Source: a virus (lineage: Duplodnaviria; Heunggongvirae; Uroviricota; Caudoviricetes). From it: 33,680 bases of DNA. The notes under the pieces are model-generated. The model searched no databases. It was not told the origin of the DNA and saw nothing but the letters and a program-made list of their open reading frames with translations. Below, in pieces: positions 1,534 through 33,221 of this stretch (position 1 is the first letter of the stretch; each line of letters starts with the position of its first letter). The DNA lies in the IMG/VR virus record IMGVR_UViG_2526164670_000016, positions 1 to 33,680 of that record; one strand, written 5' to 3'. Made by a program: the position numbers and the translations under genes.

Positions 1534-1573
1534 GCCTGTAATCTACTGAAATAAATGGATTTATTTCTTACAA

Positions 1574-1611
1574 TGTCCACACATTGACCACATCAAACAA
1601 ACCCCGTCCAC
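1574..1611. promoter_or_regulatory. Candidate integrase arm-type binding sites (direct repeats TGTCCACA at 1574-1581 and GTCCACA at 1605-1611)
   Basis: Two direct copies of the reverse complement of TGTGGACA, which I recall as the P2 Int arm-site consensus, about 30 bp apart next to the att core. Confidence 0.35.
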
Positions 1612-1626
1612 AAACGGGGTTTTTTA
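1600..1626 (+). terminator. Rho-independent terminator-like hairpin (AACCCCGT / ACGGGGTT, then TTTTTT)
   Basis: 8-bp GC-rich stem, 6-nt loop and a run of six T on the plus strand, about 70 bp downstream of cyaR. Confidence 0.5.
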
Positions 1627-1678
1627 ATACTTTCCCCTCCCCCTTCGCTGTAGATCCTTTTATTAAAACTTCATGCAT

Positions 1679-1980
1679 CATTTTGCAAAACCCAGAGCAC
1701 AGCAAACCAGCCGCCAGCCCGCGCCGCGCAAGGCTTCGACATATCCGCGACCCAAAACTACCAGATGCCACCGAGTCATTTTGATCGTCACGAAAACCAA
1801 AACGATCCTTTTAAAAACATCATGTTATCCAGTCGGTTAGCGACTGGCGACGCGGTGACTTTTGCAAAGTGCTGCAAATCTTTGCGCAGCGTGCAAACGC
1901 CCGCAGGATACAAAAGCCCAGCAGCGGCGCAGGCTGGCGGGGTGCTTTGCGCAAAATTTCTTTTGCAAAATTTTTATGAT
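1679..1980. repeat. Non-coding att-adjacent region with repeated TTTGCAAA / TTTGCGCAAA palindromic motifs
   Basis: TTTTGCAAAA near 1681, 1860 and 1961, TTTGCGCAAAA near 1946, plus related TGCAAA units; the ORFs predicted here overlap each other and lack ribosome-binding sites. Confidence 0.4.
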
Positions 1981-2071
1981 CCAAACTGCGCAGGCGGGTG
2001 CGGTGTAGTGCCGTTTCCGTCTTGGATCCGCTTCCGTCTGCCTGCTGTCGCTTACGCTGTGGGCCGCTGTT

Positions 2072-2108
2072 GAACGAACGAAAGAAAGGCCGCACGGTGG
2101 CGGCCTTT
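2072..2108 (-). terminator. Rho-independent terminator at the end of the minus-strand tail operon (possibly bidirectional)
   Basis: Hairpin AAAGGCCGC-ACGGTG-GCGGCCTTT at 2085-2108; on the minus strand it is followed by TTTCTTTCGTTCG, about 65 bp after the stop of the 2175-3899 gene. Confidence 0.55.
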
Positions 2109-2174
2109 AATATTTGCGCCTGCTGTGGCGCGTTCTGTGGTGTCTGGTGAGATCTGCGGTACTGCCGCTTTTTG

Positions 2175-3899
2175 TCAGGCTATCAGGGGACCGTATTTGC
2201 TTTTCAATGTATCGGTTTTAGTGGCCGCTGCGGTGAACTGCGCAGCCTGCCCGCTGGCCCCTGTATTGGGGTGAGTATGTGACGCGGCGGTCTCTGCCAG
2301 TTCCCTCACCACGTCCAGGGTGTCAGTGAGTAGTGTCAGTACGTTAATTTCTTCGCTTCCCAGTTTTACCACCGGGGCAATCAGCTGTTGCGCCTGGGCC
2401 ACACTTCGGCGGATACCGCTGATTTTCTCAGTCAGTGCGCCGCTGACGTTTGACGTGACATTCCCTTTCACGTCGTCTGTAACATCGCCCGCGACGTCCC
2501 GTTTTGCGTTCCGGCCAACACTGACGGAATTGTCCTTGCTGCAGGTTACTGTCAGGTTGCCGGATGTGCCGATACTGTAATCACCCTCGCTGATATGGAC
2601 CACCGCCCCGGCCAGAAGAGTGGCCGTGCCAAGCACGGTTGTTTTATCCGTTGCCTGGACCGTAGTTTCACGGACAACCACTTTGCGGATCTCTTCGTCG
2701 GTGGTGACTTCGCGCATCATGGAGTTTTCGCGGATTGTCTGGTCCGTCTGGCGTTCCCAGTCTCCGGCAACCGTCACGCGCTGCGATACACCATCGCGCT
2801 GTTGCTGCAACTGCTCGCCGGGTTTAACCGCTGGCAGGTTATGACCCTCCGCCATAATCTGGCGCACGAAGGGCTTATCCTGCCGCCCCTCAGTGAACCC
2901 GATTTCAACCAGCGTGCCAGGGGGCGGAAACTGGAACATTCCCGACTCGCTGCCCGCCATTGGTACAGGTAGCGGAACGGCAGAATAAACCGGCGTATTT
3001 GCGGCTGGCTTGCCGTATTCGTCAAGCAGCTGGAGATCCACGGCATAGCGCGGGCGGAATGGATCGGCAATATTACCCCCTGAAACATCCTCGCTTGGCG
3101 CTTCCACCCTGGCGAATTTTGGAAGATGCAGGCCGCTTGCCAGCTCCGGGAATGCGTTTTCAATCTGCCGCTGAATGGGTGATTTTTGCAATGGCTGGCC
3201 GTTGGCTTTGTTGCGTGGCTGCCAGGTGATTGTCATGTCGTCGTTATTTAGCCGGACCTGGTTTAACCGCTGGCCGTTCACCTCAGCACCCGGGCGCAGG
3301 CTCTGAATCATCGGCACAACCATTGAATTGCCGCCTGCCGATGCCTGGCTAAATTCGTGCGGGATCTCTACTGGTTTACCCGCAAAAAGACTGTGCTCAG
3401 CAGCACCGACGAAGACATCCCCGTCCGGCAGCTGATACCAAAGATAATCCGTCATTGAAAATGCTCGGCCCAGACTGGCAAAAAGCTGGTAGCCCGTGCC
3501 GCTGTGCGTAAAGTGGGGGATCGGTTTATCTGCATAAGCAGCGCCGACCGGCGTTGTGACGGTCAGCCCGCTTTGCTCACTTATCCAGTCAGTAATCTGG
3601 CGCAACGTTGGATGCTGGAAAGAACACGGCCACAATTTATCAAAGATGCCGACCAGCTCACGCACGAACAACCGGCATGTTCCATTATCAGCAGGCTGTG
3701 ACCGTTCGACGTACCCGGTAAACCAGCGCAGGACCAGACCATCATAACCAACATCGATACGCACCATTTTGCCGGTGTAATCTGTCTCTGTCCCCGCCGT
3801 AATAAACCCCCGACCGCACGCGTTCAGCTCCAGCACGATATTGCAGTCAATCAGATGGACCGGATCAGAGGAAAGGTACAGGCGTTTAATTGGTTTCAT
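2175..3899 (-). CDS. Baseplate hub-spike fusion protein (gpD/gp27-like hub fused to gpV/gp5-like spike), 574 aa
   Basis: Last gene of the tail operon next to att; length is roughly P2 D plus V; C-terminal segment (GTLVEIGF..., ...HTHPNTGASGQ) resembles spike proteins from memory. Family assignment not confirmed by search. Confidence 0.55.
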   Translation of the reverse strand: MKPIKRLYLSSDPVHLIDCNIVLELNACGRGFITAGTETDYTGKMVRIDVGYDGLVLRWFTGYVERSQPADNGTCRLFVRELVGIFDKLWPCSFQHPTLRQITDWISEQSGLTVTTPVGAAYADKPIPHFTHSGTGYQLFASLGRAFSMTDYLWYQLPDGDVFVGAAEHSLFAGKPVEIPHEFSQASAGGNSMVVPMIQSLRPGAEVNGQRLNQVRLNNDDMTITWQPRNKANGQPLQKSPIQRQIENAFPELASGLHLPKFARVEAPSEDVSGGNIADPFRPRYAVDLQLLDEYGKPAANTPVYSAVPLPVPMAGSESGMFQFPPPGTLVEIGFTEGRQDKPFVRQIMAEGHNLPAVKPGEQLQQQRDGVSQRVTVAGDWERQTDQTIRENSMMREVTTDEEIRKVVVRETTVQATDKTTVLGTATLLAGAVVHISEGDYSIGTSGNLTVTCSKDNSVSVGRNAKRDVAGDVTDDVKGNVTSNVSGALTEKISGIRRSVAQAQQLIAPVVKLGSEEINVLTLLTDTLDVVRELAETAASHTHPNTGASGQAAQFTAAATKTDTLKSKYGPLIA

Positions 3900-3906: not shown

Positions 3907-4449
3907 TTACCCCAGCGCATCGTTGACCGGCTTTAAGACCTTTTCTTCAAACCAGCTCATTTTGTCGGCTGGTTCATCAGCACCTGCAGCCGGACCCGCG
4001 CCCTTTGCCCCTGTTTGCCTGGTGGTGGCCGTCGCGTTGCCTTTTCTGGCCTGTCGTTTTTCCGGGACGCTGCCTTTTTCACGCAGGGTGAAACTTACCT
4101 GCCAGGCAAGGCGATCCTCCTGCGGTACGGCATCAATCTGACCGGTGAACGTGGCTTCACGAAGGTTGATAGCCGTTGCCGTCGCATTGGCAACACGGTA
4201 CTTTTTCAGTGCGCCGCTGGCTTCGGTTGCGGATGCCAGCTGGAAAAGCCGCTGTAAAACGGCTTCATCGTCGAATGTCACCAGACCCGACACGCGCAGC
4301 TCTTTGGCCTTGATACCCTGTTCAGCATTGGCCGTGCTCGATGTCTGGCCCGACTGGTCCTTCTCCTGAAACTGCATGGAAGGTGAAACCAGCATGTTCT
4401 GCATGGCGATCCCTTCACCATCAAGCGCGAGTAATGCGGTCTGGCTCAT
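3907..4449 (-). CDS. Tail/baseplate-associated protein, function unassigned, 180 aa
   Basis: ORF in the tail operon between Tfa-like and hub-spike genes; GC content matches the surrounding structural genes; no family recognised. Confidence 0.4.
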   Translation of the reverse strand: MSQTALLALDGEGIAMQNMLVSPSMQFQEKDQSGQTSSTANAEQGIKAKELRVSGLVTFDDEAVLQRLFQLASATEASGALKKYRVANATATAINLREATFTGQIDAVPQEDRLAWQVSFTLREKGSVPEKRQARKGNATATTRQTGAKGAGPAAGADEPADKMSWFEEKVLKPVNDALG

Positions 4450-5143
4450 GTAGCATCCTCCCTAAGTCAGATAACGAATCCCCGATAAACATCATCGCGG
4501 CGGTATGCACTGCCGTTGTTTGCGGGATGCATTTCAGCAATTCAGCGGCAGCAACGGCATAACTCCCGCTGTAACTGAATGAAAAAATATTCGCACTGGC
4601 GGCTTTCAGGTCGTCCAGTCCCTGGCTGAGTGAGGACAGCAAACCGGCCCGTTCCTGAATAAATCCCGTCACCTGGTTTTTTAGATCTGTTGTGGTGGTA
4701 CTGACTGCGGCGGCCAGCTGCGCGGCGGCAACACGCTGGGCATTCAGCGCCAGCCGGTTGGTTGAGACTGATAACGGCGCACTGGCTGGCAATACATCGG
4801 CTTTAACCGGCAACTGCATTTTTACCGTGCTGAGTTCTGCGGCGGCTGCCGCCATGCGGCTTACCTGCGTAAAAGCGGGGGCAGGAAATACGGTGGACAG
4901 TTTATTCAGCCCCTGCATAAATGCGTCGTGGGTATTCTCCGCTACCATCATGACGATGACATCGCCGCTACCGCCACCGGATAACAGCTTTTTAGCAAGA
5001 TATTCCATCGCATTGGCCGGACTAAGATAAGCGCCTGAATCCGTGGACTGACCCAGCCCATACACCCACGGATGGGCCGGAATGATTGAACAGGATAATG
5101 CCGACATATCATCGGCAATCCTTATAATTGAATCACGCCACAT
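4421..5143 (-). CDS. Tail-module protein, function unassigned (about 240 aa from the ATG at 5143; track ORF extends to a TTG at 5191)
   Basis: Long ORF in the tail operon; ATG at 5143 has GGAG about 10 nt upstream and overlaps the Tfa stop by 11 nt; no family recognised. Confidence 0.35.
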   Translation of the reverse strand: MWRDSIIRIADDMSALSCSIIPAHPWVYGLGQSTDSGAYLSPANAMEYLAKKLLSGGGSGDVIVMMVAENTHDAFMQGLNKLSTVFPAPAFTQVSRMAAAAAELSTVKMQLPVKADVLPASAPLSVSTNRLALNAQRVAAAQLAAAVSTTTTDLKNQVTGFIQERAGLLSSLSQGLDDLKAASANIFSFSYSGSYAVAAAELLKCIPQTTAVHTAAMMFIGDSLSDLGRMLHEPDRITRA

Positions 5144-5570
5144 CGGCAGGTTGCTCCGGCCAGACAATATCTGTCGCTGAGTCGGTATCAATGCGCATCA
5201 GCGATACCCTGTATTCACGCCAGGCAGTAAAAAGCGCTTTTTCTGCGTCCGTCGCTTTACCCAGATCAACGGCATCCTGCAAAGGTGCCAGGATATTGCT
5301 GGCCGCAGCCATCAGGGCAGATTTTTGCGTCTCAGCCCTTACGATTGATTCTTCTTCAGAAAGCGGCAGGGGGTCAGAAAGGACCGGCTGACCATATTCA
5401 TTTGGGATGATGATACGCCCTGAACTCTTATCAATCAGATACTGATACCAGCGCTCAGAAATCAACAAGGCGTCAGCAGGCCAGCCCAGTTCCGATTTTT
5501 CATAATCTGGCTTCAACGAAAGGAAGAAAAATCCATTCATGGAAGCACTGTAATAATATTGCTCATCCAT
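5133..5570 (-). CDS. Tail fibre assembly protein (Tfa / P2 gpG-like chaperone), 145 aa
   Basis: Small ORF directly downstream of the tail fibre gene (4-bp gap); sequence resembles Tfa-family proteins; position is conserved. Confidence 0.7.
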   Translation of the reverse strand: MDEQYYYSASMNGFFFLSLKPDYEKSELGWPADALLISERWYQYLIDKSSGRIIIPNEYGQPVLSDPLPLSEEESIVRAETQKSALMAAASNILAPLQDAVDLGKATDAEKALFTAWREYRVSLMRIDTDSATDIVWPEQPADVA

Positions 5571-5573
5571 TTT

Positions 5574-7496
5574 TTAATATCCCGTTGCCAGCCAGAACAA
5601 AGGAAAGCCCTGGTTTGCGTTAAGCCTTGCCGTCGTATTGGAATATTGCGACACCGAACATTCGAGCGTCCCGGCCACATTCGAGGTAAAAGGCGTGACC
5701 TGAATATTCCGGCACGCATTCGGGAATGCGATCGGGAACGTAATATTTTGATAACCGGACGTCTGGTTCGTGTAACCCCACTGACGGATCCTTCCTGTTG
5801 TTCCGTCGCGCTCCCAGCCGTTTTGCCCCAGGCTGGCCGTATTTTTCAGGTTATAGCGTGCGTCGCTCTCGGCTTTTGTATACGACCCAATCGACCCCGC
5901 CGAAATGGTGATGTTTGCTGTACCGTTAAATGCCACGCCGTTGATGGTGCGGGCGGTTTGCAATTGTGACGCTGAAACCGCATTACCATTTGACGCAAGA
6001 GCGCCAATCTCTGCCGGGGTGGGCTTGTTCGCCACATCATAGGCTTTTGTCCATGCAGACCAGGTGCCACCATAAAGCGTTCGGGCATAACTGCGGGAAT
6101 TGTTGTACACGCGATAAATTTGCGTGATTCCGGCATGCTTAAGGACTTCAAGAGAACCCGCGATCGCCTCCGGATAATTCGTCCCGGTTTGCGCCTGCGC
6201 GTTCGCGGGCTGGTAATAAAGCCCTGGCGTGGTGTAGTTGTTCAGATTTGCTGCATTACCAATCCCTTCGGCCAACCGAAAAATATCAGACGGGAAAAGA
6301 TCGATATTACTCGATAGCGCTCGACCGTTAACCGTTCGTGTTGAGGGCACGCGACTATTAGCATTATCGTTAGCCGCCTTAACTGCTTTCGGCGTCGCGG
6401 CGACGGCTTCCGACTCGCTGTCGGTGGCGCTGCTCAGTTGAATAATCCCTTTCTGCGCTGTCGTAGCGTCCTGCGCGGTGTATTTACCTTTCGCCAGGTC
6501 ATAGGTTGCCTTAACCGCTTTCGGCGTTGCCGCTACTTCTTCAGAATCGCTATCCGTGGCGCTGCTTAATTGCGTGAATCCCTTTGCGGTTGTGGTGGCG
6601 TCCGGGTGGTTGCGTGATTGTTCGTGTTTTTTCAGCGCATCACTGGCCTGTTGCTCGTTCAGCGTACCTTTTGGACGAAGATCGGTAATGACGCCGTTTG
6701 CGTCGATACTCGCAAGGGCAAACACGAAATGTTGCTCACCATTCTGCACGTAATCTTTAAGGTCGGCGGCAACCGTGATTTTGCTTTGTACCGCCCAAAT
6801 GCTCGTAAGCGTTCCCATCCACGCCACATCCAGCCAGACCTTAACCGGCTTTGTTGACACGGTAATATTCTGGTTTGCGGCCAACACTGAACGCAGACCG
6901 GCAAGGTATCCAGTACCTTTAGTGACAAAATACTGGGTGCCTGTTTTCGCGACCAGATAACCCGCATCAAAGAACGACGCCGCACCATACAGATCGATAT
7001 TTTCGCGGCGCTGGCGTTCATCCATTGCCGCCAGACGGGCAGTAAAATCAATCTGCCATGTCTCTGCCGGGGTGGTAATTTCCGTTGCTTCCCTGGCTCC
7101 GCTGTATTCCATCAGCATGGAACGGACCAGAACGTTTCCCTGCTGGCCGTTCGCATTTTTGATTTTACGCTGGGTCGGGGCATGAATAATCATCGCCAGT
7201 GTACCGGTGGCTTTATTTGCCAGACCGATCCAGTTGAAATCAAAATCACCCACATCTGCCCCCATCGTGACGGAATAAACGACAGAGTTTTCATTCACAA
7301 CACCGGATTTACTCACCACCTGACGATAAACAATTTTATCCGCTGCGGGTGCTGTCTCGGTATTATCAATCGGCTTATCAGCATCCAGCCCCGGAATATA
7401 CGCGAAAATAAATTCATCCAGCGCGACGGGCTGATTATTAATAGCCTGCTGGGCTTTCCACTCTGTAAATGCTTTTGTAATAACAGCCTGTGACAT
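5574..7496 (-). CDS. Tail fibre protein (P2 gpH-like), 640 aa
   Basis: Contains the duplicated motif HEQSRNHPDATTTAKGFTQLSSATDS...AATPKAVKA that I recall from P2 gpH; Gly/Asn/Thr-rich C-terminal receptor-binding region. Confidence 0.8.
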   Translation of the reverse strand: MSQAVITKAFTEWKAQQAINNQPVALDEFIFAYIPGLDADKPIDNTETAPAADKIVYRQVVSKSGVVNENSVVYSVTMGADVGDFDFNWIGLANKATGTLAMIIHAPTQRKIKNANGQQGNVLVRSMLMEYSGAREATEITTPAETWQIDFTARLAAMDERQRRENIDLYGAASFFDAGYLVAKTGTQYFVTKGTGYLAGLRSVLAANQNITVSTKPVKVWLDVAWMGTLTSIWAVQSKITVAADLKDYVQNGEQHFVFALASIDANGVITDLRPKGTLNEQQASDALKKHEQSRNHPDATTTAKGFTQLSSATDSDSEEVAATPKAVKATYDLAKGKYTAQDATTAQKGIIQLSSATDSESEAVAATPKAVKAANDNANSRVPSTRTVNGRALSSNIDLFPSDIFRLAEGIGNAANLNNYTTPGLYYQPANAQAQTGTNYPEAIAGSLEVLKHAGITQIYRVYNNSRSYARTLYGGTWSAWTKAYDVANKPTPAEIGALASNGNAVSASQLQTARTINGVAFNGTANITISAGSIGSYTKAESDARYNLKNTASLGQNGWERDGTTGRIRQWGYTNQTSGYQNITFPIAFPNACRNIQVTPFTSNVAGTLECSVSQYSNTTARLNANQGFPLFWLATGY

Positions 7497-7507: not shown

Positions 7508-8107
7508 CTACTTCAAACTTGCGCTGTATGTTATTTGGGGCTGGTTATTCACATCGCCCAGGGTGGCAGGCCAGCAAATATATTCCCCCTGATACCAGCC
7601 AATATTGATATTCAGTGGCAGGGATGTGATCACTTCAAACTGGTAACGGCGGCATGTACGCCCATATTTACGGATGATTTCCAGCAGGAGATCGCCATTT
7701 TCCGCAATCTGGCTGTTTGTCACCCGAACAACAATCACGTCCCAGTCGAGTCCGTCCTGCCGCTCCAGCAATTCAACGTAACCAATCCCCAGTCGCTCAA
7801 AAATGGCAATAAAGCCCGCCACCTCTCCGGCCTGCTGCGCATTGATAAATGCGTAGCTCACCCGTTTGCGGAAGATGTCGAGCGGCTCCCCCTTAAACCG
7901 ATCGATATCGCGTTCCCAGGCAATCAGGTTTAACAGCGGTTCGGGGCAGACCAGCGGGTCAAACTGCTTTAACGGCCAGGAGATCCACCCGTACACCTGC
8001 GACCAGAACTTCACGCAGGCCCGCACCAGCCTGGCGGGGTCGCCTTTGTTCAGCCACGACGGCAATTTCAGACCGGCAAGCAACTTTGAAAACTCAGTCA
8101 TTCTCAA
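7508..8107 (-). CDS. Baseplate/tail protein (P2 gpI-like or Mu gp48/DUF2313-like), 199 aa
   Basis: Position between the J-like baseplate gene and the tail fibre gene; overlaps the J-like stop; size and position fit gpI/gp48-type proteins. Confidence 0.5.
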   Translation of the reverse strand: MRMTEFSKLLAGLKLPSWLNKGDPARLVRACVKFWSQVYGWISWPLKQFDPLVCPEPLLNLIAWERDIDRFKGEPLDIFRKRVSYAFINAQQAGEVAGFIAIFERLGIGYVELLERQDGLDWDVIVVRVTNSQIAENGDLLLEIIRKYGRTCRRYQFEVITSLPLNINIGWYQGEYICWPATLGDVNNQPQITYSASLK

Positions 8108-22512: not shown

Positions 22513-22568
22513 ACGCAGTTAAGTTAAAATCATCCCCACTGTTAGCAATGGCGTGCGGGATGGTGAAC

Positions 22569-24299: not shown

Positions 24300-24346
24300 A
24301 CCGTAAAAACATTATTTGCAGGCTCTTTGCCGCCCGCACCCGCAGA

Positions 24347-24389
24347 ATCCTGCAGGCCGACGCAAACAGTTGCGACGTCCTGCAGGATT
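24347..24389. repeat. GC-rich inverted repeat (AATCCTGCAGG ... CCTGCAGGATT with a partly palindromic 22-nt centre)
   Basis: Perfect 11-bp arms at 24347-24357 and 24379-24389 between the convergent KAP gene and the 24394-25104 ORF. Confidence 0.5.
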
Positions 24390-24393
24390 GCAT

Positions 24394-25682: not shown

Positions 25683-25697
25683 ATAAAGGGTATTGAG

Positions 25698-26309
25698 ATG
25701 AATACTGATGTAATAATTCTTTCCAGAACAAAAATGTCTGGAGATAAAATTTGCGTAGGTGGATTAGATCTTAATAGTGGGAAGATGTTAAGATTATTGG
25801 ATAATAGAGCAAGTGCTTTGACTTCAGCTTATCCATATAGTATTGGCGAAACATACTCAATAGAGTTTGCTGAAAGGTATCAAGTAGCAGCCCCACATGT
25901 TGAAGATGTAGCTGTTTATGACTACAGCTTAGCGAAAAGTTTTAATAAAGTAGATCTAGATACTATCGTCCATAAACACTCTGGTACATATAACAATCTT
26001 AGTGAACTCTTCTCTGGAAAACTTCACTGGCAAAACTCCAAGGGATATGCTTTGGAGTCAGACCCTCCGGAATTTAGCGTTCAAATAGCAAAAATTAATA
26101 AAATCCTAGTTAGAAATGGAACTGACTTTCAAGAGTTCGGCTCACTCAATCCGCGCAAAGTTAAATATGTTGGCGAACTTGATATAAATAGACTCCCTAG
26201 TAGAATAAATCCTGGCACACCTATTAGATTTTCTTTAGCTCGACCTTGGGATAAGGATAATAATGGTATTAAAGTGTGTTATTTACAACTATCTGGAGTT
26301 TACATTTAA
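25698..26309 (+). CDS. Hypothetical protein, 203 aa, co-operonic partner of the DUF488-like gene
   Basis: ATG 15 bp after the DUF488 stop with AAAGGG..GAG upstream; AT-rich; no family recognised. Confidence 0.5.
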   Translation: MNTDVIILSRTKMSGDKICVGGLDLNSGKMLRLLDNRASALTSAYPYSIGETYSIEFAERYQVAAPHVEDVAVYDYSLAKSFNKVDLDTIVHKHSGTYNNLSELFSGKLHWQNSKGYALESDPPEFSVQIAKINKILVRNGTDFQEFGSLNPRKVKYVGELDINRLPSRINPGTPIRFSLARPWDKDNNGIKVCYLQLSGVYI

Positions 26310-26428: not shown

Positions 26429-28927
26429 TTACTCTATCGCCTTTCTCCAGCGACTGAGCAACTCATCAACTCTATGCCTTGCCAGCGTTTTACGCCAGTT
26501 CATATCCGCACCGGTCACAATCAACTCCCCTGTAATTTGGTTGGCACGGTAAGTAGTATCAAGCGCAGTCACTTCTCTCCCTTGTACCAGCTTTAGCACT
26601 TGCACAGGTGTGATTTGGATCTTTCTTAACTTCGCCCAATCCAGTACCTGAGCAACTAGGGCTGTAACGTTCTTATCTACTACGCTTTCTTCCTGGCGGA
26701 GCGCATACGCGGCTTTTAAATAGCTTTCCGCTCTAGCTCGGTTATATTCGGTGCACTCACCCACAGTGATACTGTACGCAAGTGACTCAAACTCATCTGC
26801 TGCTGAAACACGCTGCGTTTGTTTGTGGATTTTCAGGCCTTCAGCAATCTCTTTTTTCTGTTCCCACCTTAATTTGCCGATTTCAAATTGCTCTGGAGAT
26901 TCATCCCTAGTCGGCAAAGTCAGATCTGGCCGATAAACAACCTGGCAATCTGTTTGTTTTTTGTACTCAGTACAGTTATTGACACGAGTCCTAGAGGGCG
27001 CAGACGCGCCCTTAAGGTCAACAGCAAGGTCAACGGCCTTGCCTGAATCGTTAATAATCTCCGGTTTCTTACGCACAATCCGATAAGAATGTAGGCGGGT
27101 TTCAACTGGCGGCATGAAGATGTGAGGCATCACCAGTCCTTTAATTAAGGTCTGGTATTCACCGTGATCGTTTGGCTGGTCTTTTTGTTGATACCAGATG
27201 CGCAGTGGCAGATCACAACGGGCAACCAACGCCCCACCCTGCAATTGGGTGTATTGCTGCCAGTCGCCAGCATCCGCTGCACGGTGCAGCTCGGCAAACA
27301 ACGGGTTAATCTGGTCTGCCTTTTCCTGATTGCGGAATCGACGTAGCTCGCGCCAGACTGAAACAGGCGCACCACCAAGGAACTGGAATTGACGAATACC
27401 CCAGCATGATGCCCAGGCCGTCGCATGTTTTGAGGTTTCTTTTAATGGTCTGCCGTTCTCGTCATCTGTTTCACCGTCGAGCGCGTAACCATCAATATTC
27501 TTGCTGATATACTTCACCACATAACCGGTGGCGCTTCCGATTTCATGATCGATAGGCTTCATTTCGAAACGTGGACGAATGCCATGCTTACCCTGCAATT
27601 CGTCCTCATCCTCGCGGGTGGCGTAGTCCTTCATCACTTCCAACAATTCAGCTGAATGTTCTGGTAAGGAAAACAGAAGACCATGCCAGTGTGGCGTTCC
27701 GTCGTGGTGAGATTCAGCCACGCGAAGCCCAAACACCTGAATATCGCGGCGGGCCAACTCAGCGCGGATCTGTTGCCAGACTCGATTAAGATAACGTTGC
27801 GTGGTTCTTGGACTGGCCCCGTTCCATTTGCCATTACGATGACCGAAGACGGTATAGGCATGATATTTGGAAGGTGCTGTCATGGTGAAAAACTGCCCTG
27901 CATAGCCACTTTCGGTAGCGACTTTCTCGAAGCCACCGATGCGAGTCATAAGCTCAACGCGGCGCAAAGCTGGGTTAGATATGCTCTTATCTATTTGCTC
28001 AATGAGTGAAATGCGTTCTTTGGTTTCCTGATCTTCCAGCTCAAGCCTGGCCATAATCGCCCGGCTGCGTTTCCGCCTAGTGTCCCACTCTTCAACATGA
28101 TGCTTACTGCAATATGGCGCAGCGCCTCGCTTCACATCACCAAAAGCGATGTGCAGATGTTCACGCCAGCGCGTGCCGTACTTTTTAAGATTTCGGTGCC
28201 AGTAGCGATCATCCAGCATCTTGCTGATACCGGTCGTCGCCTCATCAATAAACAATTTACCCCGGCAATACTTTTCCCAGTTCGGTGGCGTTAGAAAGAA
28301 AAGACGCGCAAGTTGTGCCGCCTCGGTGTAAAGGTATTCGGCATACCGGCGATCACTTTGCGTCTCTACCGTTTCGTGTACCTCGCTCAGCACCGACCGC
28401 ATATAGATCGCAATATCCTGCGCTAATAGTTCAACATCTTCCGGCGTGTAGTCCGGCAGCCTGTTGAATCTCTCAACTAAACCGTTAAGGGTATCAAATA
28501 CATGGTAAAGCGGGTTTAACTTTTTGAATGCTGTTTCAGCTTGTGATTTTGCGTCTTCGGTCATCGCAATTGCGTATTGAGCATTCACCATATTGATGGG
28601 CGGCAGCTCTCTGCGGATGATGTCTCTTACTGCCTGACGGGCAATATGTCGGCCCTTCATCGTGTGAATACTGTCAATGCGAGAAGCCAAGCGCAGGCGT
28701 ATAAAGCGAGGAAGTCTCGAAAGGGTAAGTTTCACCCACGACAAAAACTCTTGTTCTTGACCCAATTCGAATAGATCAACAACAGGAGTCTTATCAACAT
28801 AAATAGCTGCATTAGGCTTTTGCCACTCGTAATCGTAATTGATATCAGCAGCAGAATTAGACATACCCCTGCCGCCAACTAACTGGCGGCGATTGTTACT
28901 CGGCCGAACAAACGCGGAGTCTGTCAC
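26429..28927 (-). CDS. A: Replication initiation endonuclease (P2 gpA-like rolling-circle initiator), 832 aa from the GTG at 28927
   Basis: HUH motif (DGTPHWHGLLF) and catalytic tyrosine motif (GYVVKYISKNIDGYALDG) as I recall from P2 gpA; GTGA overlap with the Dam stop, alternative ATG at 28864. Confidence 0.85.
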   Translation of the reverse strand: MTDSAFVRPSNNRRQLVGGRGMSNSAADINYDYEWQKPNAAIYVDKTPVVDLFELGQEQEFLSWVKLTLSRLPRFIRLRLASRIDSIHTMKGRHIARQAVRDIIRRELPPINMVNAQYAIAMTEDAKSQAETAFKKLNPLYHVFDTLNGLVERFNRLPDYTPEDVELLAQDIAIYMRSVLSEVHETVETQSDRRYAEYLYTEAAQLARLFFLTPPNWEKYCRGKLFIDEATTGISKMLDDRYWHRNLKKYGTRWREHLHIAFGDVKRGAAPYCSKHHVEEWDTRRKRSRAIMARLELEDQETKERISLIEQIDKSISNPALRRVELMTRIGGFEKVATESGYAGQFFTMTAPSKYHAYTVFGHRNGKWNGASPRTTQRYLNRVWQQIRAELARRDIQVFGLRVAESHHDGTPHWHGLLFSLPEHSAELLEVMKDYATREDEDELQGKHGIRPRFEMKPIDHEIGSATGYVVKYISKNIDGYALDGETDDENGRPLKETSKHATAWASCWGIRQFQFLGGAPVSVWRELRRFRNQEKADQINPLFAELHRAADAGDWQQYTQLQGGALVARCDLPLRIWYQQKDQPNDHGEYQTLIKGLVMPHIFMPPVETRLHSYRIVRKKPEIINDSGKAVDLAVDLKGASAPSRTRVNNCTEYKKQTDCQVVYRPDLTLPTRDESPEQFEIGKLRWEQKKEIAEGLKIHKQTQRVSAADEFESLAYSITVGECTEYNRARAESYLKAAYALRQEESVVDKNVTALVAQVLDWAKLRKIQITPVQVLKLVQGREVTALDTTYRANQITGELIVTGADMNWRKTLARHRVDELLSRWRKAIE

Positions 28928-29910
28928 CGCTCAGACTCCACGCCACATGTCGCAGCCGTTGCCAGCATTTCGTTATAGGTCGCGTTACCCATTACAGGGC
29001 CACAATCAGGGCAACCACCACCACCGGCACGACCACAGCCGCTACACAATTTGAGGACGCCGATCACTTCACTGGCGGCCCCTCGGGTAATGGCGTTCGC
29101 GCTAACAGAACGGTTAACGCTGATTTCCTGGAAGTTGAAACAGCGATAAATCTCGCGGGTGACTGGGGTGTCGCTATTGGACAGGATCACCGGCGAACCA
29201 GTAAGGCGGTTAATATCCAGCAGGACGGCAGCTAACTGGCGATGTTCTTTAATGCCAAACGGGGCTGTGTGATATTGGGTGAAATTAGCTGTTTCGCTTG
29301 TTGGCAGGTATGGCGGATCGCAGTAGATAACCGCGTCACTACCAATCATGATTTTTAACGTGCTCTGGAAATCGCAGCACACGAAAATGGCTTTCGTGTC
29401 GTTAGCTTTTTCAGAGAATAAACGGATCTGTTCTTCCGGGAAGTAAGGCGGGGTTTTGTGACGCCCAAAGGGAACGTTATATCCACCCTGTTGGTTGTAG
29501 CGTACTACGCCGTTATATCCGTGACGGTTCAGGTAAAGAAATTGTGCTGCACGAAGAATCTTGCCCGCGTCCGGCCCATCTTCAAACACACTGCGCAATG
29601 ACAGTAGGTCACGTGCGCGGGCGTTGAAATCATCGCGGATCCATTTATAGCCGTCTTTATCGCCGTACACTTTAAACAGTGGGCGAGCAGCGTCGATCAC
29701 CGCATCAGGCCAGCGGGTTATCTGGCGATACAGGTTAATTAAATCTGGGTTGATATCACCCAGGATATAACGGCGATATTCAGTATTGAGGAAAACAGAA
29801 GCACCGCCGACAAACGGTTCCACCAGGCAATCGGCTTTCGGCAGAATCGGCAGCAAATCAGGCATAACGCGGCCTTTACCACCGGGCCATTTAACGAGAG
29901 ATCGAATCAT
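28924..29910 (-). CDS. DNA adenine methyltransferase, Dam-like, with a Cys-rich C-terminal extension, 328 aa
   Basis: WPGGKGRV...EPFVGGASVF (SAM-binding) and IYCDPPY (catalytic DPPY) closely resemble E. coli Dam from memory; extra tail CSGCGRAGGGGCPDCGP; GGAG RBS before the ATG at 29910. Confidence 0.85.
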   Translation of the reverse strand: MIRSLVKWPGGKGRVMPDLLPILPKADCLVEPFVGGASVFLNTEYRRYILGDINPDLINLYRQITRWPDAVIDAARPLFKVYGDKDGYKWIRDDFNARARDLLSLRSVFEDGPDAGKILRAAQFLYLNRHGYNGVVRYNQQGGYNVPFGRHKTPPYFPEEQIRLFSEKANDTKAIFVCCDFQSTLKIMIGSDAVIYCDPPYLPTSETANFTQYHTAPFGIKEHRQLAAVLLDINRLTGSPVILSNSDTPVTREIYRCFNFQEISVNRSVSANAITRGAASEVIGVLKLCSGCGRAGGGGCPDCGPVMGNATYNEMLATAATCGVESER

Positions 29911-29980: not shown

Positions 29981-30376
29981 TTAATTTACTGCGTTATCTG
30001 GCGCGGGTGGTTTGTCGCGTATCGCCTGAATTTCGGCGCGTGGTGCGGCGTAGTCCTCAAATTCCCACGGCATTGATGCTGCAAATTCGGAAAGGCGCTT
30101 AATGCCCATCAAAAGGCACGTTTGCTCCTTTTCGGTTAGATTTTCGTAAGTACAACCCAGCTGTTTGGCGGTCAGCTTCGGCATTCCGACTATGTATCTG
30201 GACGCATCGTTTGCCAGGATGAAAATCACCTTTTTGCAGGCATCATCCAGGCGGTTAAAACGGGTTGCAGTGTCATTCACGCGTGAGGCGTTCAAACTGG
30301 CTTGCAGCCGCGCCCGTTGCTCTAAGAACTGGCGGCGACCTGGCTGTTGTTCTGTCTTATCCATCAACATAACCAC
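29981..30376 (-). CDS. Hypothetical early-operon protein, up to 131 aa (sits where P2 has gene B, but not recognised as B)
   Basis: ORF in the early operon between the 97-aa ORF and the Dam gene; several candidate starts; no family recognised. Confidence 0.4.
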   Translation of the reverse strand: MVMLMDKTEQQPGRRQFLEQRARLQASLNASRVNDTATRFNRLDDACKKVIFILANDASRYIVGMPKLTAKQLGCTYENLTEKEQTCLLMGIKRLSEFAASMPWEFEDYAAPRAEIQAIRDKPPAPDNAVN

Positions 30377-30385
30377 CTCCCCGAA

Positions 30386-30679
30386 CTACGCAAAGATGCC
30401 CATTAAGCGGGAAAACCAGCGGCGCTTATTACGCGGGCGCGACATGAACGGTACACGGTAGTTTTTAACAAATTGAACATCTAACGCTTTCGGCTGGAAG
30501 AACCTCCCGTCCGGGGTTTCAATCCAGCCACGTTGATGCTGACGGTGGGTGATCTGCTGGCCGTGGGTGAGCAGGCTGGCGAGTGAAGGGCACTGTGTTA
30601 AGTCCATGATGATCTCCGTCATATTGAAAAGATGCCGGGATATAACCCCACGCCCGGCACGTGTTTCCTGTGATAACAT
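30386..30679 (-). CDS. Hypothetical early-operon protein, 72-97 aa depending on start
   Basis: ORF with an internal ATG (MDLTQ...) preceded by GGAG; basic C-terminus; no family recognised. Confidence 0.3.
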   Translation of the reverse strand: MLSQETRAGRGVISRHLFNMTEIIMDLTQCPSLASLLTHGQQITHRQHQRGWIETPDGRFFQPKALDVQFVKNYRVPFMSRPRNKRRWFSRLMGIFA

Positions 30680-31229: not shown

Positions 31230-31586
31230 TCACTGTGGCGTTATCGTTTTTCTTGTGCGAGGTGGTACATCTCGCACGGTTTCTTCATCAACAATCAACT
31301 CATAAACTCTGATGCTGTTATCACCTTTTGATACGTCATCAAATACCTGAAAAAGAAAACTCATGAATTGCTCATAAGTGACGCTGGGTTCAACATACCC
31401 ACCTGTAACCTCAATTAATGGTGTTAGTCCTGAATTATCTGCTAACGAAACGCAGTCCAACTTATCCAAACGGAAAAAGTAATTACCGCAAGGTGTTCTT
31501 TTATCCTTAATCCGTATAAACACATTTGATAACGCTGTATGACTATCTGAGAGTTTAAAGATTTTTGCCGTGTCCATTTTATTCAA
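31230..31586 (-). CDS. Hypothetical protein, 118 aa, immediately downstream of cox
   Basis: AT-rich ORF in the position occupied by orf78 in P2; no family recognised. Confidence 0.35.
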   Translation of the reverse strand: MNKMDTAKIFKLSDSHTALSNVFIRIKDKRTPCGNYFFRLDKLDCVSLADNSGLTPLIEVTGGYVEPSVTYEQFMSFLFQVFDDVSKGDNSIRVYELIVDEETVRDVPPRTRKTITPQ

Positions 31587-31599
31587 CCCTGTAAGTTGC

Positions 31600-31875
31600 T
31601 TATGATGGATTGCCCAGACCCAACCACATTAACCACCCTTCCCTAATTTCCTTCGGGCGGCTCTCATACGCCATTTTCATGCCGTTGTTCCAGGCTGGAA
31701 GATAGACCCAGTACTCACCTGCCCGCCCGGAAGTTGATTGCGGATCGGTCATTTCAACTACAGGTAGCTTTCCTTTTTCAATCATCCCCTTCACCGCTGC
31801 CGGTGTTTTACCAATGAGTTTTGCGAACTCCTGATATGGGACGGCATCTGTGCTTAACGCGATCTGTTTAACCAT
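31600..31875 (-). CDS. cox: Cox (P2-type excisionase and transcriptional regulator), 91 aa
   Basis: Near-identical by memory to P2 Cox (...DAVPYQEFAKLIGK...GKLPVVEMTDPQSTSGRAGEYWVYLPAWNNG...AYESRPKEIREGWLMWLGLG); divergent from C. Confidence 0.85.
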   Translation of the reverse strand: MVKQIALSTDAVPYQEFAKLIGKTPAAVKGMIEKGKLPVVEMTDPQSTSGRAGEYWVYLPAWNNGMKMAYESRPKEIREGWLMWLGLGNPS

Positions 31876-31937
31876 TTAAGGCCCTCACAAGTTTAAGAAT
31901 CGTCACCAATGGCTTATAGTTGCTTTTGATGTTCATT

Positions 31938-31991
31938 TCTAAACATCAAACAGTCTACATCTAAATCAAATAGTATTGAGATCTAAACACC
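31938..31991. promoter_or_regulatory. Immunity switch region: three direct repeats of TCTAAA(C/T) spaced exactly 22 bp (starts 31938, 31960, 31982); candidate C-repressor operators overlapping the Pe/Pc promoters
   Basis: Direct repeats with two-helical-turn spacing in the cox-C intergenic region; P2 C is known to bind paired direct repeats flanking the early promoter -10. Confidence 0.45.
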
Positions 31992-32291
31992 ATGTCAAAC
32001 GCCTTAAACGAGAAAATTGTACTCATCAGAAAGTCTGAGTATCTCAGCAGACAGCAACTTGCTGATTTAACAGGCATTCCCTATGGCACTTTAAGTTATT
32101 ACGAAAGTGGTCGTTCTACACCGCCCACGGACGTAATGATGAGGATTTTGCAAATGCCCCAGTTCAGCAAATACACGTTGTGGTTTATGACCGATCAGGT
32201 TGCTCCCGAAGCCGGTCAGATAGCACCGGCCCTCGCACACTTTGGGCAAGATGTAACAACATCGCAGCACTCAGACCAAAAGATTGGTTAA
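31992..32291 (+). CDS. C: Immunity repressor C (P2-type), 99 aa
   Basis: Near-identical by memory to P2 C (MSN...EKIVL.RKSEYLSRQQLADLTG.PYGTLSYYESGRSTPPTDVMM); 99 aa as in P2; followed by int. Confidence 0.85.
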   Translation: MSNALNEKIVLIRKSEYLSRQQLADLTGIPYGTLSYYESGRSTPPTDVMMRILQMPQFSKYTLWFMTDQVAPEAGQIAPALAHFGQDVTTSQHSDQKIG

Positions 32292-32436
32292 CCATTCACC
32301 AGGCGCATCTTTATTACAAAATTTGTTTACTTGTTGCCAAATACAACAAGCACAACAAGTTTGTGAAATCTAAGCGCAAGGGAAAATTAACAGCAGCAAA
32401 GAAAACTCAACCTAGCACCATTCATTTGGGGGTCTT

Positions 32437-33221
32437 ATGACAATTAAGAAACTCGATGATGGTCGTTATGAAGTGGATATCAGACCTGCAGGGCGCAACG
32501 GAAAGCGCATCCGCAGGAAATTTGACAAGAAAAGTGAGGCTGTAGCTTTTGAGAAACACACTCAATACAACCATCACGATAAAGAATGGCTAGCTAAACC
32601 GACAGATAAGCGGCATCTGTCTGAATTAACAAAAGTCTGGTGGGATCTGAAAGGCAAGCATGAAGAACACGGAAAATCCAATTTGGGTAAGATTGAAATC
32701 TTTACCCGGATCACTGATGACCCTTGCGCGTTCCAGATAACCAAAGCGCTTATTAGCCAGTACAGCATGACTCGCAGAGGGCAAGGCATAAAACCGGCCA
32801 GTATTAACCGCGACCTTACCTGCCTGAGTGGTATGTTTACTGCGCTAATTGATGCGGAACTGTTTTTTGGCGAACACCCTTTCAGAGGGATGAAAAAGCT
32901 CAAGGAGCAGAAACCAGAAACAGGCTATCTGACGCAGGAAGAAATAACATTGTTACTTGCCAATCTTGACGGGGACAACAAGAAAATCGCGATCCTCTGT
33001 TTAAGTACCGGCGCTCGATGGGGTGAAGCCGCGAAACTGAAAGCTGAGAACGTAATACAGAATCGGGTGACGTTCGTTAAAACAAAGACGAACAAACCGC
33101 GCACAGTCCCTATCTCTGAGGAAGTTGCTGTAATGATTGCGGGTAAAGGTTATCTGTTCCCTGATGCCTCATATCCGAAGTTCAGGCGAACAATGAAAGA
33201 TGTAAAACCAGATCTACCGAG
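32437..33221 (+). pseudogene. int: Tyrosine integrase (P2 Int-like), 3'-truncated by IS insertion; about 261 of an expected ~337 aa retained
   Basis: N-terminal 260 aa strongly resemble P2 Int from memory up to ...KDVKPDLPS; after about 33221 the frame reads unrelated sequence (LYIDLCNCLILICS...) into the IS; the C-terminal catalytic region is absent. Confidence 0.8.

What the first reader, a model, noticed from the sequence alone, without database searches (positions are those of the whole stretch)
1535..33221. Mosaic, probably defective P2-family prophage that retains accessory cargo
Regulatory (C, cox, int), replication (A) and head (Q, P, O, N, M, L) genes are P2-type, while the tail module has a different order and a fused hub-spike. 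Two independent lesions (int cut by the IS, frameshift in the gp46/W-like gene) coexist with apparently intact cargo: KAP NTPase, DUF488 operon, Dam methyltransferase and YegP-like gene. This pattern fits a grounded prophage kept for its accessory functions.
Basis: inference. Interest (0 to 1): 0.5.

Follow-up and report, generated by a model that had tools for sequence, protein, structure and literature searches.

The report
Freshly broken P2-family prophage, ordinary
This is a common type of P2-family prophage sitting at the classic P2 attachment site of E. coli. In this one strain an insertion sequence has cut its integrase and a one-base insertion has broken a tail gene. Otherwise identical copies in other strains carry the same extra genes and have the integrase intact, and 99.8-99.98% identical copies have the tail gene intact, so nothing shows it is being "kept" for that cargo.

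Summary
Window 1507-33219 is a ~32-kb Peduoviridae prophage at the P2 att site (3' end of cyaR, between yegQ and yegR) in E. coli EC4100B.

- **Structural genes:** 88-100% aa identical to Salmonella phages SI7/SW3/SW5 deposited as complete genomes (Irrigatiovirus), and colinear gene for gene with Haemophilus phage HP1. This includes the VgrG-like fused hub-spike.
- **Lysogeny genes:** cox, C and int are 80-86% identical to P2 itself.
- **Lesions:** both are real in the sequence. IS1414 cuts int after codon 261. An extra C at 9544 frameshifts the DUF2590 gene, which I show has the gp25/W sheath-initiator fold.
- **The lesions are private.** A sister contig is 100% identical over 20,276 nt with the same cargo and an intact int. 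Fifteen other copies all have an intact DUF2590.
- **Interpretation:** this is a just-inactivated ordinary prophage, so "kept for its cargo" is unsupported. The frameshift could be a sequencing error.
- **Cargo:** the KAP NTPase (PADLOC PDC-S20) and the DUF488-DuOB pair sit in the known gpA-gpQ defence hotspot. Dam is backbone. "YegP-like" is unconfirmed.
a 680-bp remnant of the original A gene shows that a foreign A + DUF488-DuOB block was imported.

Interest is low.

The parts
1..1362 (+). Host gene yegQ/trhP (flank, not part of the prophage)
   Evidence: Annotated as yegQ/trhP under the matches in E. coli genomes; Peptidase_U32.
1445..1530 (+). Host sRNA gene cyaR (ryeE); its 3' terminator is the att core
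   Evidence: Rfam RF00112, 100.7 bits, full-length match 1-85/85.
1507..1533 (.). attL core, identical to the P2 attP core; a P-arm-like sequence follows to ~1622
   Evidence: 27/27 match to P2 24356-24382, then ~80% identity over 118 nt. attR in intact sister L003 is AAACGCCCTTACACGGGCTTATTTTTT, 79 nt after the int stop.
2175..3899 (-). Fused baseplate hub-spike (VgrG-like; HP1 orf35 family)
   Evidence: 97% aa to SI7 and 41% to HP1 orf35. Foldseek hits VgrG, Pvc8, Afp8 and Mu gp44. Weak Phage_base_V and Gp5_C Pfam hits.
3907..4449 (-). HP1 ORF34-type baseplate protein
   Evidence: PF25759, 7.5e-54.
4421..5143 (-). HP1 orf33-like tail protein
   Evidence: 92% aa to SI7 gp22, 27% to HP1 orf33; phrog_1677.
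5133..5570 (-). Tail fibre assembly protein
   Evidence: Caudo_TAP, 3.5e-30.
5574..7496 (-). Tail fibre; its C-terminal half (~5279-6508) is unrelated to SI7 (host-range cassette)
   Evidence: blastn gap versus SI7; Phage_tail_fib, Phage_fiber_2 and Gp53-like_C.
7508..8101 (-). gpI-like baseplate protein
   Evidence: Tail_P2_I, 9.7e-5; 53% aa to HP1 orf30.
8094..9278 (-). gpJ-like baseplate wedge protein
   Evidence: Baseplate_J, 1.3e-28.
9271..9607 (-). DUF2590 gene (gp25/W-type sheath initiator), broken by an extra C at 9544 (lesion 2)
9604..11718 (-). Tape measure protein
   Evidence: PhageMin_Tail; 98% aa to SI7.
11720..12177 (-). Tail assembly chaperone (TAC_10) with a programmed -1 frameshift (A_AAA_AAC at 11917-11911) into the DUF6890 ORF
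   Evidence: Sequence read directly; Pfam families. Analogue of P2 E/E+E'.
12174..13299 (-). Lysis cassette: holin, M15 endolysin and overlapping Rz/Rz1-like spanins
   Evidence: Phage_holin_3_2 and Peptidase_M15_4. Lipobox ITSGC in the 98-aa ORF.
13304..14905 (-). Tail tube (HP1 Orf24 family) and sheath (DUF2586)
   Evidence: Pfam; 52-53% aa to HP1 orf24/orf23.
14908..16546 (-). Tail completion gpS-like and gpR, and head completion gpL
   Evidence: Phage_tail_S, P2_Phage_GpR and Phage_GPL.
16649..19465 (-). gpM small terminase, gpN major capsid, gpO scaffold
   Evidence: Pfam; 96-98% aa to SI7, 23-36% to P2.
19643..22512 (+). gpP large terminase and gpQ portal
   Evidence: Pfam; 40% and 33% aa to P2.
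22509..22835 (+). Ogr/Delta zinc-finger late activator
   Evidence: PF04606, 2.6e-17.
22944..24299 (+). Cargo 1: KAP-family P-loop NTPase, apparently soluble, 34% GC
   Evidence: KAP_NTPase 2.6e-40. PADLOC PDC-S20 6.7e-70, PifA 4e-16, QatA 9e-13. No TM segment.
24318..24997 (-). Remnant of the resident SI7-type A gene (last 199 codons, frame still open) plus its downstream sequence
   Evidence: 95% nt to SI7 27805-28484; 94% aa to SI7 gpA residues 680-878.
25119..26309 (+). Cargo 2: DUF488 + DuOB gene pair, 36% GC
   Evidence: Pfam; PADLOC PDC-M45B 1.4e-54. The pair is conserved in an Enterobacter peduovirus prophage and in Pseudomonas and Acinetobacter chromosomes.
26429..28927 (-). Full-length gpA replicase of a different allele (imported together with cargo 2)
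   Evidence: Phage_GPA. Only 34% aa to SI7 gpA. 74% nt colinear with Enterobacter prophage L015 over 25023-28222.
28924..29910 (-). Dam (D12) methyltransferase, a backbone gene of this lineage
   Evidence: PF02086, 5.5e-58; 97% aa to SI7 gp32.
29981..30679 (-). Early genes: orf131 (unknown function) and Fil-like cell-division inhibitor
   Evidence: Phage_186_Fil, 1.3e-11; phrog_7428.
   Evidence: phrog_9021. No DUF1508 support. 40% GC.
31230..32291 (.). orf115, cox (-) and C repressor (+): P2-type immunity switch
   Evidence: Cox 80% and C 84% aa to P2; Phage_Cox and HTH_3.
32437..33219 (+). int, first 261 codons only (lesion 1)
   Evidence: 86% aa to P2 Int. The intact 335-aa version is in L003 and L006.
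33220..33680 (+). Left end of IS1414 (IS256 family); the window and the source contig both end inside it
   Evidence: 100% identical to IS1414 copies in E. coli; Transposase_mut.

Best explanation
**What it is**
- An ordinary temperate peduovirus (P2-family) prophage of about 32 kb.
- Its virion and lysis genes are of the HP1/Irrigatiovirus type. Its immunity-integration module (cox, C, int, att) is of the P2 type.
- It is integrated by P2-type Int at the P2 attachment site formed by the 3' end of cyaR, between yegQ and yegR.

**How it works as a lysogen (inferred from P2 biology)**
- The C repressor keeps the early operon off.
- Low-GC 'moron' genes are expressed from the prophage. These are a soluble KAP NTPase and a DUF488-DuOB pair in the hotspot between A and ogr/Q, and orf159 in the early region.
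- They most likely act as superinfection-exclusion or anti-phage functions, as old and tin do in P2.

**What happened in this strain (E. coli EC4100B)**
- Two very recent private events disabled the prophage.
- IS1414 inserted after int codon 261 and separated the catalytic His/Arg/Tyr residues. Int-Cox excision is therefore impossible.
- A +1 insertion truncated the gp25/W-type sheath initiator after codon 22. Even a complemented genome could not build contractile tails, provided the extra base is real.

**What did not happen**
- Every other gene is intact and base-for-base the same as in sister prophages elsewhere.
- The element is therefore a freshly grounded phage, not a domesticated cargo carrier.

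**An earlier event in this lineage (shared by all sisters)**
- A block holding a foreign A replicase allele plus the DUF488-DuOB cassette replaced most of the resident A region.
- This left a 680-bp A stump and put two cargo cassettes in tandem.
For: **Identity**
- 95.4% nt identity to phages SI7, SW3 and SW5.
- Protein table against SI7, HP1, P2, 186 and Mu.
- HP1 gene order.
- P2 att core 27/27.
- cyaR.

**Lesions**
-.

**Lesions are private and recent**
- L003 has 0 mismatches over 20,276 nt, the same cargo and an intact 335-aa int plus attR. L006 likewise has an intact int.
- L008-L012 are 99.8-99.98% identical over window 1-18279 (the yegQ flank plus the left 16.7 kb of the prophage) and all lack the extra C.
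- Ten more copies have a 111-aa DUF2590.
- The 53-aa broken product is seen with its upstream sequence only in this assembly.

**Recently mobile lineage**
- yegQ differs by about 26-28 SNPs in four host backgrounds, while the 16.7 kb of prophage differs by 2-6.

**Hotspot**
- The same position holds HicAB, GmrSD_N+HEPN, methylases, another KAP NTPase or large unknown proteins in sister prophages.
- The literature places the P2 defence hotspot between gpA and gpQ (PMC9122126).
- PADLOC candidate matches.
- Cargo is 34-36% GC against 55% for the backbone.

**Block import**
-.
Against: - No experiment: lack of excision and lack of particles are inferred from P2 and T4 biology.
- The frameshift lies in a short G/C run in a draft assembly, and the window gives no read-level support, so it may be an error.
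- For the 100%-identical sister contigs I could only show an intact int. Their DUF2590 region lay outside the DNA I could fetch.
- The other IS junction, the int 3' part and attR of this strain are outside the window, so a larger rearrangement cannot be excluded.
- Anti-phage activity of the cargo is unproven. PDC-S20 and PDC-M45 are candidates only, and DuOB matched no PADLOC model.
Confidence: 0.85

Rival explanations
1. One reading: a grounded prophage that the host retains under selection because its cargo (KAP NTPase, DUF488 operon, Dam, YegP-like gene) is useful. This would be a domesticated defence island in the making.
For: - Two lesions coexist with intact cargo ORFs.
- The cargo resembles candidate defence genes.
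- Defective P2-like elements with conserved defence genes are described in bioRxiv 10.64898/2026.02.27.708500.
Against: - The structural genes are just as intact as the cargo. There is no differential decay.
- Lesion-free sisters are 100% identical over 20 kb and carry the same cargo, so no time has passed in which selection could act.
- The lesions are seen in one assembly only.
- Dam is phage backbone.
Confidence: 0.08
2. Only the int disruption is real. The extra C at 9544 is a sequencing or assembly error in a draft genome, so the prophage is excision-defective but structurally complete.
For: - The insertion turns GG into GGG (phage coding strand) in a draft assembly.
- None of the 15 other copies examined has it, including one that differs from the window by only 3 SNPs in 18 kb.
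- The only other record of the 53-aa product is a 1-kb contig that does not reach the site.
Against: - A run of three is short for a typical homopolymer error.
- The base is present in version 2 of the public assembly.
- I had no reads to test it.
Confidence: 0.3
3. Both lesions are artefacts (a chimeric contig end at a repeated IS plus a base-call error), and the strain carries a fully functional phage.
For: - The contig ends inside the IS. Contig ends at repeats are where assemblers fail.
- Identical sister prophages have int intact.
Against: - The int/IS junction is a clean break at the exact first base of IS1414, with 460 nt of perfect IS sequence following.
- Assemblers break at repeats. 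They seldom join unique sequence to a repeat without read support.
Confidence: 0.04

Closest known systems
Salmonella phages SI7, SW3, SW5 (Peduoviridae, genus Irrigatiovirus)
   Same: - 93.6-97.5% nt identity in the major blocks.
- Structural, lysis, Dam, fil and ogr genes are 86-100% aa identical, in the same order.
   Different: - The immunity/integration module differs: SI7 cox, C and int are only 43-47% aa identical.
- The A allele differs (34% aa).
- The fibre tip and its chaperone differ.
- SI7 carries methyltransferases where this element carries KAP and DUF488-DuOB.
- Overall intergenomic similarity is about 69%, at the edge of the 70% genus line.
Haemophilus phage HP1 (Hpunavirus) and relatives HP2, K139, F108, phiO18P
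   Same: - Identical order of about 21 genes, from portal to hub-spike (orf15-orf35).
- This includes sheath-tube-lysis-chaperone-TMP-DUF2590-J-I-fibre-assembly-orf33-orf34-orf35.
- 23-59% aa identity.
   Different: - The early region, repressor type and att site are unrelated.
- The lysis enzymes are different.
Phage P2 (Peduovirus)
   Same: - Int 86%, C 84% and Cox 80% aa identical.
- Identical 27-nt att core.
- Same logic of Q-P / O-N-M-L, Ogr and gpA.
- Accessory genes sit between A and Q, as old and tin do.
   Different: - None of the tail genes gives a BLAST hit.
- P2 has separate D (hub) and V (spike) genes in different operons, and a PF04965-type W.
- ogr here lies next to Q rather than next to att.
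P2-like prophage defence hotspot (Rousset et al. 2022, PMC9122126; bioRxiv 10.64898/2026.02.27.708500)
   Same: - Variable low-GC cargo lies between gpA and gpQ.
- Sister prophages carry different defence-type genes at the same place.
   Different: - Two cassettes lie in tandem, separated by a stump of gpA.
- The cargo matches only candidate systems (PDC-S20, PDC-M45B), not validated ones.
The cryptic P2 remnant at the same site in E. coli K-12 (ogrK, yegZ) — recalled from memory, not tested here
   Same: Same chromosomal site next to yegQ/cyaR. It shows what long-term decay of a P2-type prophage there looks like.
   Different: The K-12 remnant retains only a few genes. The element here is complete apart from two point-like lesions.

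Membership tests
Peduoviridae (P2-like temperate myoviruses) | Divergent Q-P and O-N-M-L capsid/packaging operons with P2-family portal, terminase, scaffold, capsid and head-completion proteins | tested here: met
   Pfam families. 23-40% aa to P2 and 186, 33-52% to HP1.
Peduoviridae (P2-like temperate myoviruses) | gpA-type rolling-circle replicase and Ogr/Delta zinc-finger late activator | tested here: met
   Phage_GPA; Ogr_Delta 2.6e-17.
Peduoviridae (P2-like temperate myoviruses) | C/Cox transcriptional switch with a tyrosine integrase | tested here: met
   80-86% aa to P2 Cox, C and Int. The int copy in this window is truncated.
Peduoviridae (P2-like temperate myoviruses) | cos-type packaging with cohesive ends | tested here: inconclusive
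   No match to P2, 186 or HP1 cos. A C-rich cos-like motif near 1630 was not tested.
Genus Irrigatiovirus (type SI7) | At least 70% nucleotide similarity over the whole genome (ICTV genus rule, from general knowledge) | tested here: inconclusive
   About 21.4 kb of identical aligned bases. This is 67% of the prophage, 71% of SI7 and 69% symmetric.
HP1-type morphogenesis module | Colinear orf15-orf35 gene order, including DUF2586 sheath, HP1_Orf24 tube, DUF2590, HP1_ORF34 and a single hub-spike gene at the end | tested here: met
VgrG-like fused hub-spike | gp27/gp44-like hub domains followed by a gp5 OB fold and a beta-helix in one polypeptide | tested here: met
   - Foldseek: VgrG, Pvc8 and Afp8 over about 480-690 columns at E 1e-9 to 1e-7; Mu gp44 at 2.6e-6.
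- Phage_base_V at residues 310-345 and Gp5_C at 450-498, both below Pfam thresholds.
- The beta-helix part of the model has low confidence.
gp25 / gpW / TssE sheath initiators (for DUF2590) | gp25-like alpha/beta fold, about 100-130 aa, encoded next to the gp6/J-like wedge gene | tested here: met
- The gene overlaps J.
- Sequence-level tests fail: hhalign against W/M/gp46 gives E 0.16, and Foldseek finds nothing.
Defective (grounded) prophage | Inactivating lesion in a gene needed for excision or virion assembly | tested here: met
   int is cut by IS1414 before the catalytic residues. DUF2590 is frameshifted.
Defective (grounded) prophage | No excision and no infectious particles on induction | not testable with these tools
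   Needs the strain.
Domesticated prophage retained for cargo | Lesions shared by descent across strains, and structural genes decaying while cargo stays conserved | tested here: not met
   - The lesions are private.
- All structural ORFs are intact.
- The sequence is identical to intact-int sister L003 over 20,276 nt.
Peduovirus gpA-gpQ anti-phage hotspot cargo | Variable genes at this position among otherwise near-identical prophages | tested here: met
   Different cargo in GF31, SI7 and L024-L033.
Peduovirus gpA-gpQ anti-phage hotspot cargo | Demonstrated protection against phage infection | not testable with these tools
   Only PADLOC candidate models match. No paper on DUF488-DuOB defence was found.
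YegP / DUF1508 (for orf159) | Significant match to the DUF1508 domain | tested here: not met
   - No Pfam hit at E<=10, for orf159 or for 10 homologues.
- BLASTP against host YegP gives E 2.2.
- hhalign gives E 0.032 at 1.6% probability.
- The motif resemblance seen by eye remains only a lead.

The most novel reading that the evidence does not exclude
The two low-GC cassettes sitting in tandem in the A-Q hotspot are two uncharacterised anti-phage systems carried by a very common enterobacterial phage lineage. One is a soluble KAP-family NTPase (PADLOC candidate PDC-S20). The other is the conserved DUF488 + dual-OB (DuOB) pair. The A-gene stump between them records a mechanism of hotspot growth: import of a 'replicase + defence cassette' block from another peduovirus lineage by one homologous and one illegitimate crossover.
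Probability: 0.4. Interest if true: 0.45.

Novelty: new member of a known kind. Interest (0 to 1): 0.18.

Why it matters
**Main value: a correction.**
- The 'odd' tail is the standard HP1/Irrigatiovirus layout.
- The damage is strain-private and recent.
- Prophage pseudogenes of this kind are the norm: 98% of P2-like elements have at least one, according to bioRxiv 10.64898/2026.02.27.708500.
- This window therefore gives no evidence for domestication.

**Modest positive value:**
- It documents a P2-type lysogeny module driving an HP1-type virion into the cyaR att site.
- It assigns the gp25/W sheath-initiator fold to Pfam DUF2590.
- It flags two candidate defence cassettes, and a stump that shows how such cassettes can be swapped together with the neighbouring replicase gene.

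Tried and rejected
**Searches that found nothing useful**
- An exact search for the int/IS junction in genome contigs found nothing, because that collection holds one genome per species.
- Megablast of the cargo against 5,426 complete E. coli genomes, and blastn against phage records, found only the A stump.
- PDB sequence searches for KAP, DUF488 and DuOB gave nothing useful.
- Literature searches for DUF488/DuOB defence, and for the assembly accession, found nothing relevant.
- No P2, 186 or HP1 cos sequence was found in the window.
- Rfam found only host cyaR.
- The promoter/terminator scan of the cargo region was not above shuffled expectation for promoters.

**DUF2590**
- DUF2590 against P2 W / 186 M / Mu gp46 by hhalign was not significant.

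**YegP-like claim**
- It failed four tests.

**Ideas rejected**
- A Mu-like origin of the tail module was rejected. There are no Mu hits except short fibre and chaperone pieces.
It is not. That site is separate, at 11917-11911.

**Not attempted**
- dN/dS on cargo versus structural genes. The intact sisters are identical, so there is no divergence to measure.

Full report
**What is there**

The window is the end of contig AERU01000033.1 of assembly GCA_000193995.2 (100% identity). One source names the strain Escherichia coli EC4100B.

The layout from the left is as follows.
- The window begins with host yegQ/trhP at 1-1362.
- The sRNA gene cyaR follows at 1445-1530 (Rfam, 100.7 bits).
- The last 24 bases of cyaR lie inside a 27/27 copy of the P2 attP core at 1507-1533. 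About 90 nt of P-arm-like sequence follow.
- From there to 33219 runs a prophage.
- At 33220 the sequence switches to the left end of IS1414. It is 100% identical to E. coli IS1414 copies from 33221 to the window end, and both the contig and the window end inside it.
- There are no tRNA genes.

**What kind of phage**

Megablast finds Salmonella phages SI7, SW3 and SW5 at 95.4% identity over 82% of the first 25 kb. These are 30-kb complete genomes; SI7 was isolated from irrigation water and is classified in Peduoviridae, genus Irrigatiovirus. It also finds 18 complete E. coli genomes with a related prophage between yegQ and yegR.

I compared every ORF with SI7, HP1, P2, 186 and Mu.
- The portal-to-hub-spike block is 88-100% aa identical to SI7.
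- That block is colinear, gene for gene, with HP1 orf15-orf35 at 23-59% identity.
- Only the head genes and the holin hit P2 and 186 (23-40%).
- No tail gene hits P2, 186 or Mu, apart from short fibre and chaperone pieces.
- In contrast, Cox, C and Int are 80%, 84% and 86% identical to those of P2 itself, and only 43-47% identical to SI7's.

The element is therefore a hybrid of an HP1/Irrigatiovirus-type virion with a P2-type lysogeny and integration module. This explains why it uses the P2 core sequence.

The lineage is extremely common. Its gpR protein is indexed in 12,930 blocks of the assembly collection.

The tail order does differ from P2, but it is the normal HP1 order.

The 574-aa protein at 2175-3899 is a fused hub-spike.
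- An AlphaFold model has mean pLDDT 62.6. The N-terminal 250 residues are good, and the beta-helix region is poor, as expected for a monomer model of a trimer.
- Foldseek places it with T6SS VgrG spikes, Pvc8, Afp8 and the Mu gp44 hub at E 1e-9 to 1e-6.
- Sub-threshold Pfam and PDB sequence hits put a gp5-type OB domain at residues 310-345 and gp5 beta-helix repeats at 440-500.
- The same gene exists in HP1, HP2, F108, phiO18P, K139 and ESSI-2.

**The two lesions**

*Lesion 1: int.*
- The int reading frame is identical to intact sister copies up to codon 261 (…VKPDLP). The IS follows immediately.
- The intact protein continues DGQATHALRHSFATHF…MVYAHF…. The conserved His-x-x-Arg-His box and the tyrosine nucleophile are therefore lost.

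*Lesion 2: DUF2590.*
- Over 15.8 kb of alignment to SI7 there are only two indels.
- One is intergenic. The other is an extra C at 9544, inside the DUF2590 gene (9271-9607, minus strand).
- The extra base shifts the frame after codon 22 and produces a stop seven codons later.

*Is DUF2590 'W-like'?*
- hhalign against P2 W, 186 M and Mu gp46 is not significant.
- Foldseek is not significant either.
- gp25/W/TssE proteins are essential for contractile-tail assembly (established knowledge), so the lesion would be disabling.

A separate, normal frameshift also exists. The chaperone gene ends …GTA AAA AAC TGA, with the slippery heptamer A_AAA_AAC. Its -1 frame runs into the DUF6890 ORF, as with P2 E/E+E'.

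**How old are the lesions?**

The exact KAP NTPase protein occurs on 15 contigs.
- One of them, SRR17945687_11 (L003), is identical to the window at 20,276 of 20,276 bases (12944-33219).
- It then continues with the rest of int (335 aa), an attR core 79 nt downstream, and yegR.
- L006 also has an intact int.

Five NCBI E. coli assemblies (L008-L012) are 99.8-99.98% identical to window 1-18279, and all lack the extra C.
- One of them differs from the window by only three SNPs.
- In the other four, yegQ differs by about 26-28 SNPs, while 16.7 kb of prophage differs by 2-6.
- This is the signature of recent horizontal spread of an active phage.

Ten further copies have a 111-aa DUF2590. The 53-aa broken product is recorded, with its upstream sequence, only in this assembly.

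Both lesions are therefore private and recent. Apart from them, no structural gene differs in length from its sister copies. The +1 insertion could also be a sequencing error in a draft assembly, which I could not test.

**The cargo**

Between ogr (22509-22835) and A lie three features.
- A 451-aa KAP-family NTPase (Pfam 2.6e-40). It matches PADLOC candidate PDC-S20 at 6.7e-70, with weaker matches to PifA and QatA. Its Walker motifs are intact, it has no hydrophobic segment, and its GC content is 34%.
- A 680-bp stretch that is 95% identical to the 3' end of the SI7 A gene. It encodes the last 199 residues with the frame still open.
- A DUF488 gene (PADLOC PDC-M45B, 1.4e-54) followed by a dual-OB (DuOB) gene, at 36% GC.

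The full A gene next to them (26429-28927) is only 34% identical to SI7's A protein.

The block 25023-28222 is colinear at 74% nt with an Enterobacter peduovirus prophage. That prophage has the same DUF488-DuOB-A-Dam arrangement. The DUF488-DuOB pair also occurs on its own in Pseudomonas and Acinetobacter chromosomes.

I read this as import of a foreign 'A + cassette' block that left a stump of the resident A gene. All sister copies share it.

At the same position, sister prophages carry quite different genes: a 930-aa protein, HicAB plus a methylase, GmrSD_N plus HEPN, or another KAP NTPase. This matches the published P2 defence hotspot between gpA and gpQ (PMC9122126).

- Dam is 97% identical to SI7 gp32 and sits in the early operon upstream of A in SI7, in GF31 and in the Enterobacter prophage, so it is backbone.
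- The 'YegP-like' gene (orf159, 30746-31225, opposite strand, 40% GC) belongs to a small family of unknown function (phrog_9021). It failed every DUF1508 test I could run.

**Verdict**

- The central idea, a grounded prophage kept for its cargo, is not supported. Structural genes and cargo are equally intact, and lesion-free copies are identical in sequence.
- A recent preprint reports that 98% of P2-like elements carry at least one pseudogene. It discusses defective P2 elements with conserved defence genes as an open question (bioRxiv 10.64898/2026.02.27.708500). This window cannot address that question.
- The remaining interest lies in the untested cargo cassettes and the replicase-plus-cassette import.

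Noticed in passing
window 1445-1533: The host sRNA gene cyaR (ryeE) ends in the P2 att core. The prophage's attL regenerates a full-length cyaR (Rfam 1-85/85), so integration does not disrupt it.
   Followed up: partly
window 24318-24997 (ORF 24394-25104, minus strand): A stump of a second, SI7-type A replicase gene (last 199 codons, still open) lies between the two cargo cassettes. In P2 the ori nick site lies 427 nt before the end of A, so the stump may still hold an orphan origin.
   Followed up: partly
window 11908-11920 (minus strand): A canonical -1 slippery heptamer, A_AAA_AAC, sits immediately before the stop of the tail chaperone gene. The -1 frame continues into the DUF6890 ORF (11720-11899). 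This is the E/E+E' analogue.
   Followed up: yes
window 5279-6508: The distal half of the tail fibre and its assembly chaperone share no DNA similarity with SI7, although the flanks are 94-95% identical. Short pieces resemble P2 H, 186 K and Mu S. This looks like a host-range cassette exchange.
   Followed up: no
window ~1625-1650: A C-rich motif, CTTTCCCCTCCCCC, lies next to the att arm. It resembles the reverse complement of the P2 cos end (CTTTCCCCGCC) and sits where HP1 has its cos site. It is a possible cos site. If so, the cargo hotspot here is not cos-adjacent as it is in P2.
   Followed up: no
L008-L012 versus window 1-18279: The prophage is nearly identical (2-6 differences in 16.7 kb) in E. 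coli hosts whose adjacent yegQ differs by about 26-28 SNPs. This points to recent spread between lineages.
   Followed up: partly
L024-L033 (sister prophages), position next to ogr: The hotspot holds different cargo in each: a 930-aa protein, HicA/HicB plus a methylase, GmrSD_N plus a HEPN protein, a 611-aa protein, or a 449-aa KAP NTPase allele.
   Followed up: no
window 30746-31225 and homologues P0349-P0370: The orf159 family (about 150-175 aa) has two W-containing beta-rich repeats and a conserved C-terminal D-x-HPS motif. Its function is unknown. It lies on the opposite strand inside the early operon.
   Followed up: partly
window 12174-12663: There is an overlapping spanin pair. The 98-aa ORF has a lipobox (ITSGC) and starts inside the 127-aa Rz-like gene.
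   Followed up: no
L019 (Acinetobacter), 5001-6663: Here the DuOB gene is preceded by two DUF488 genes, one with a DUF488-N3a domain. The cassette therefore varies in copy number.
   Followed up: no
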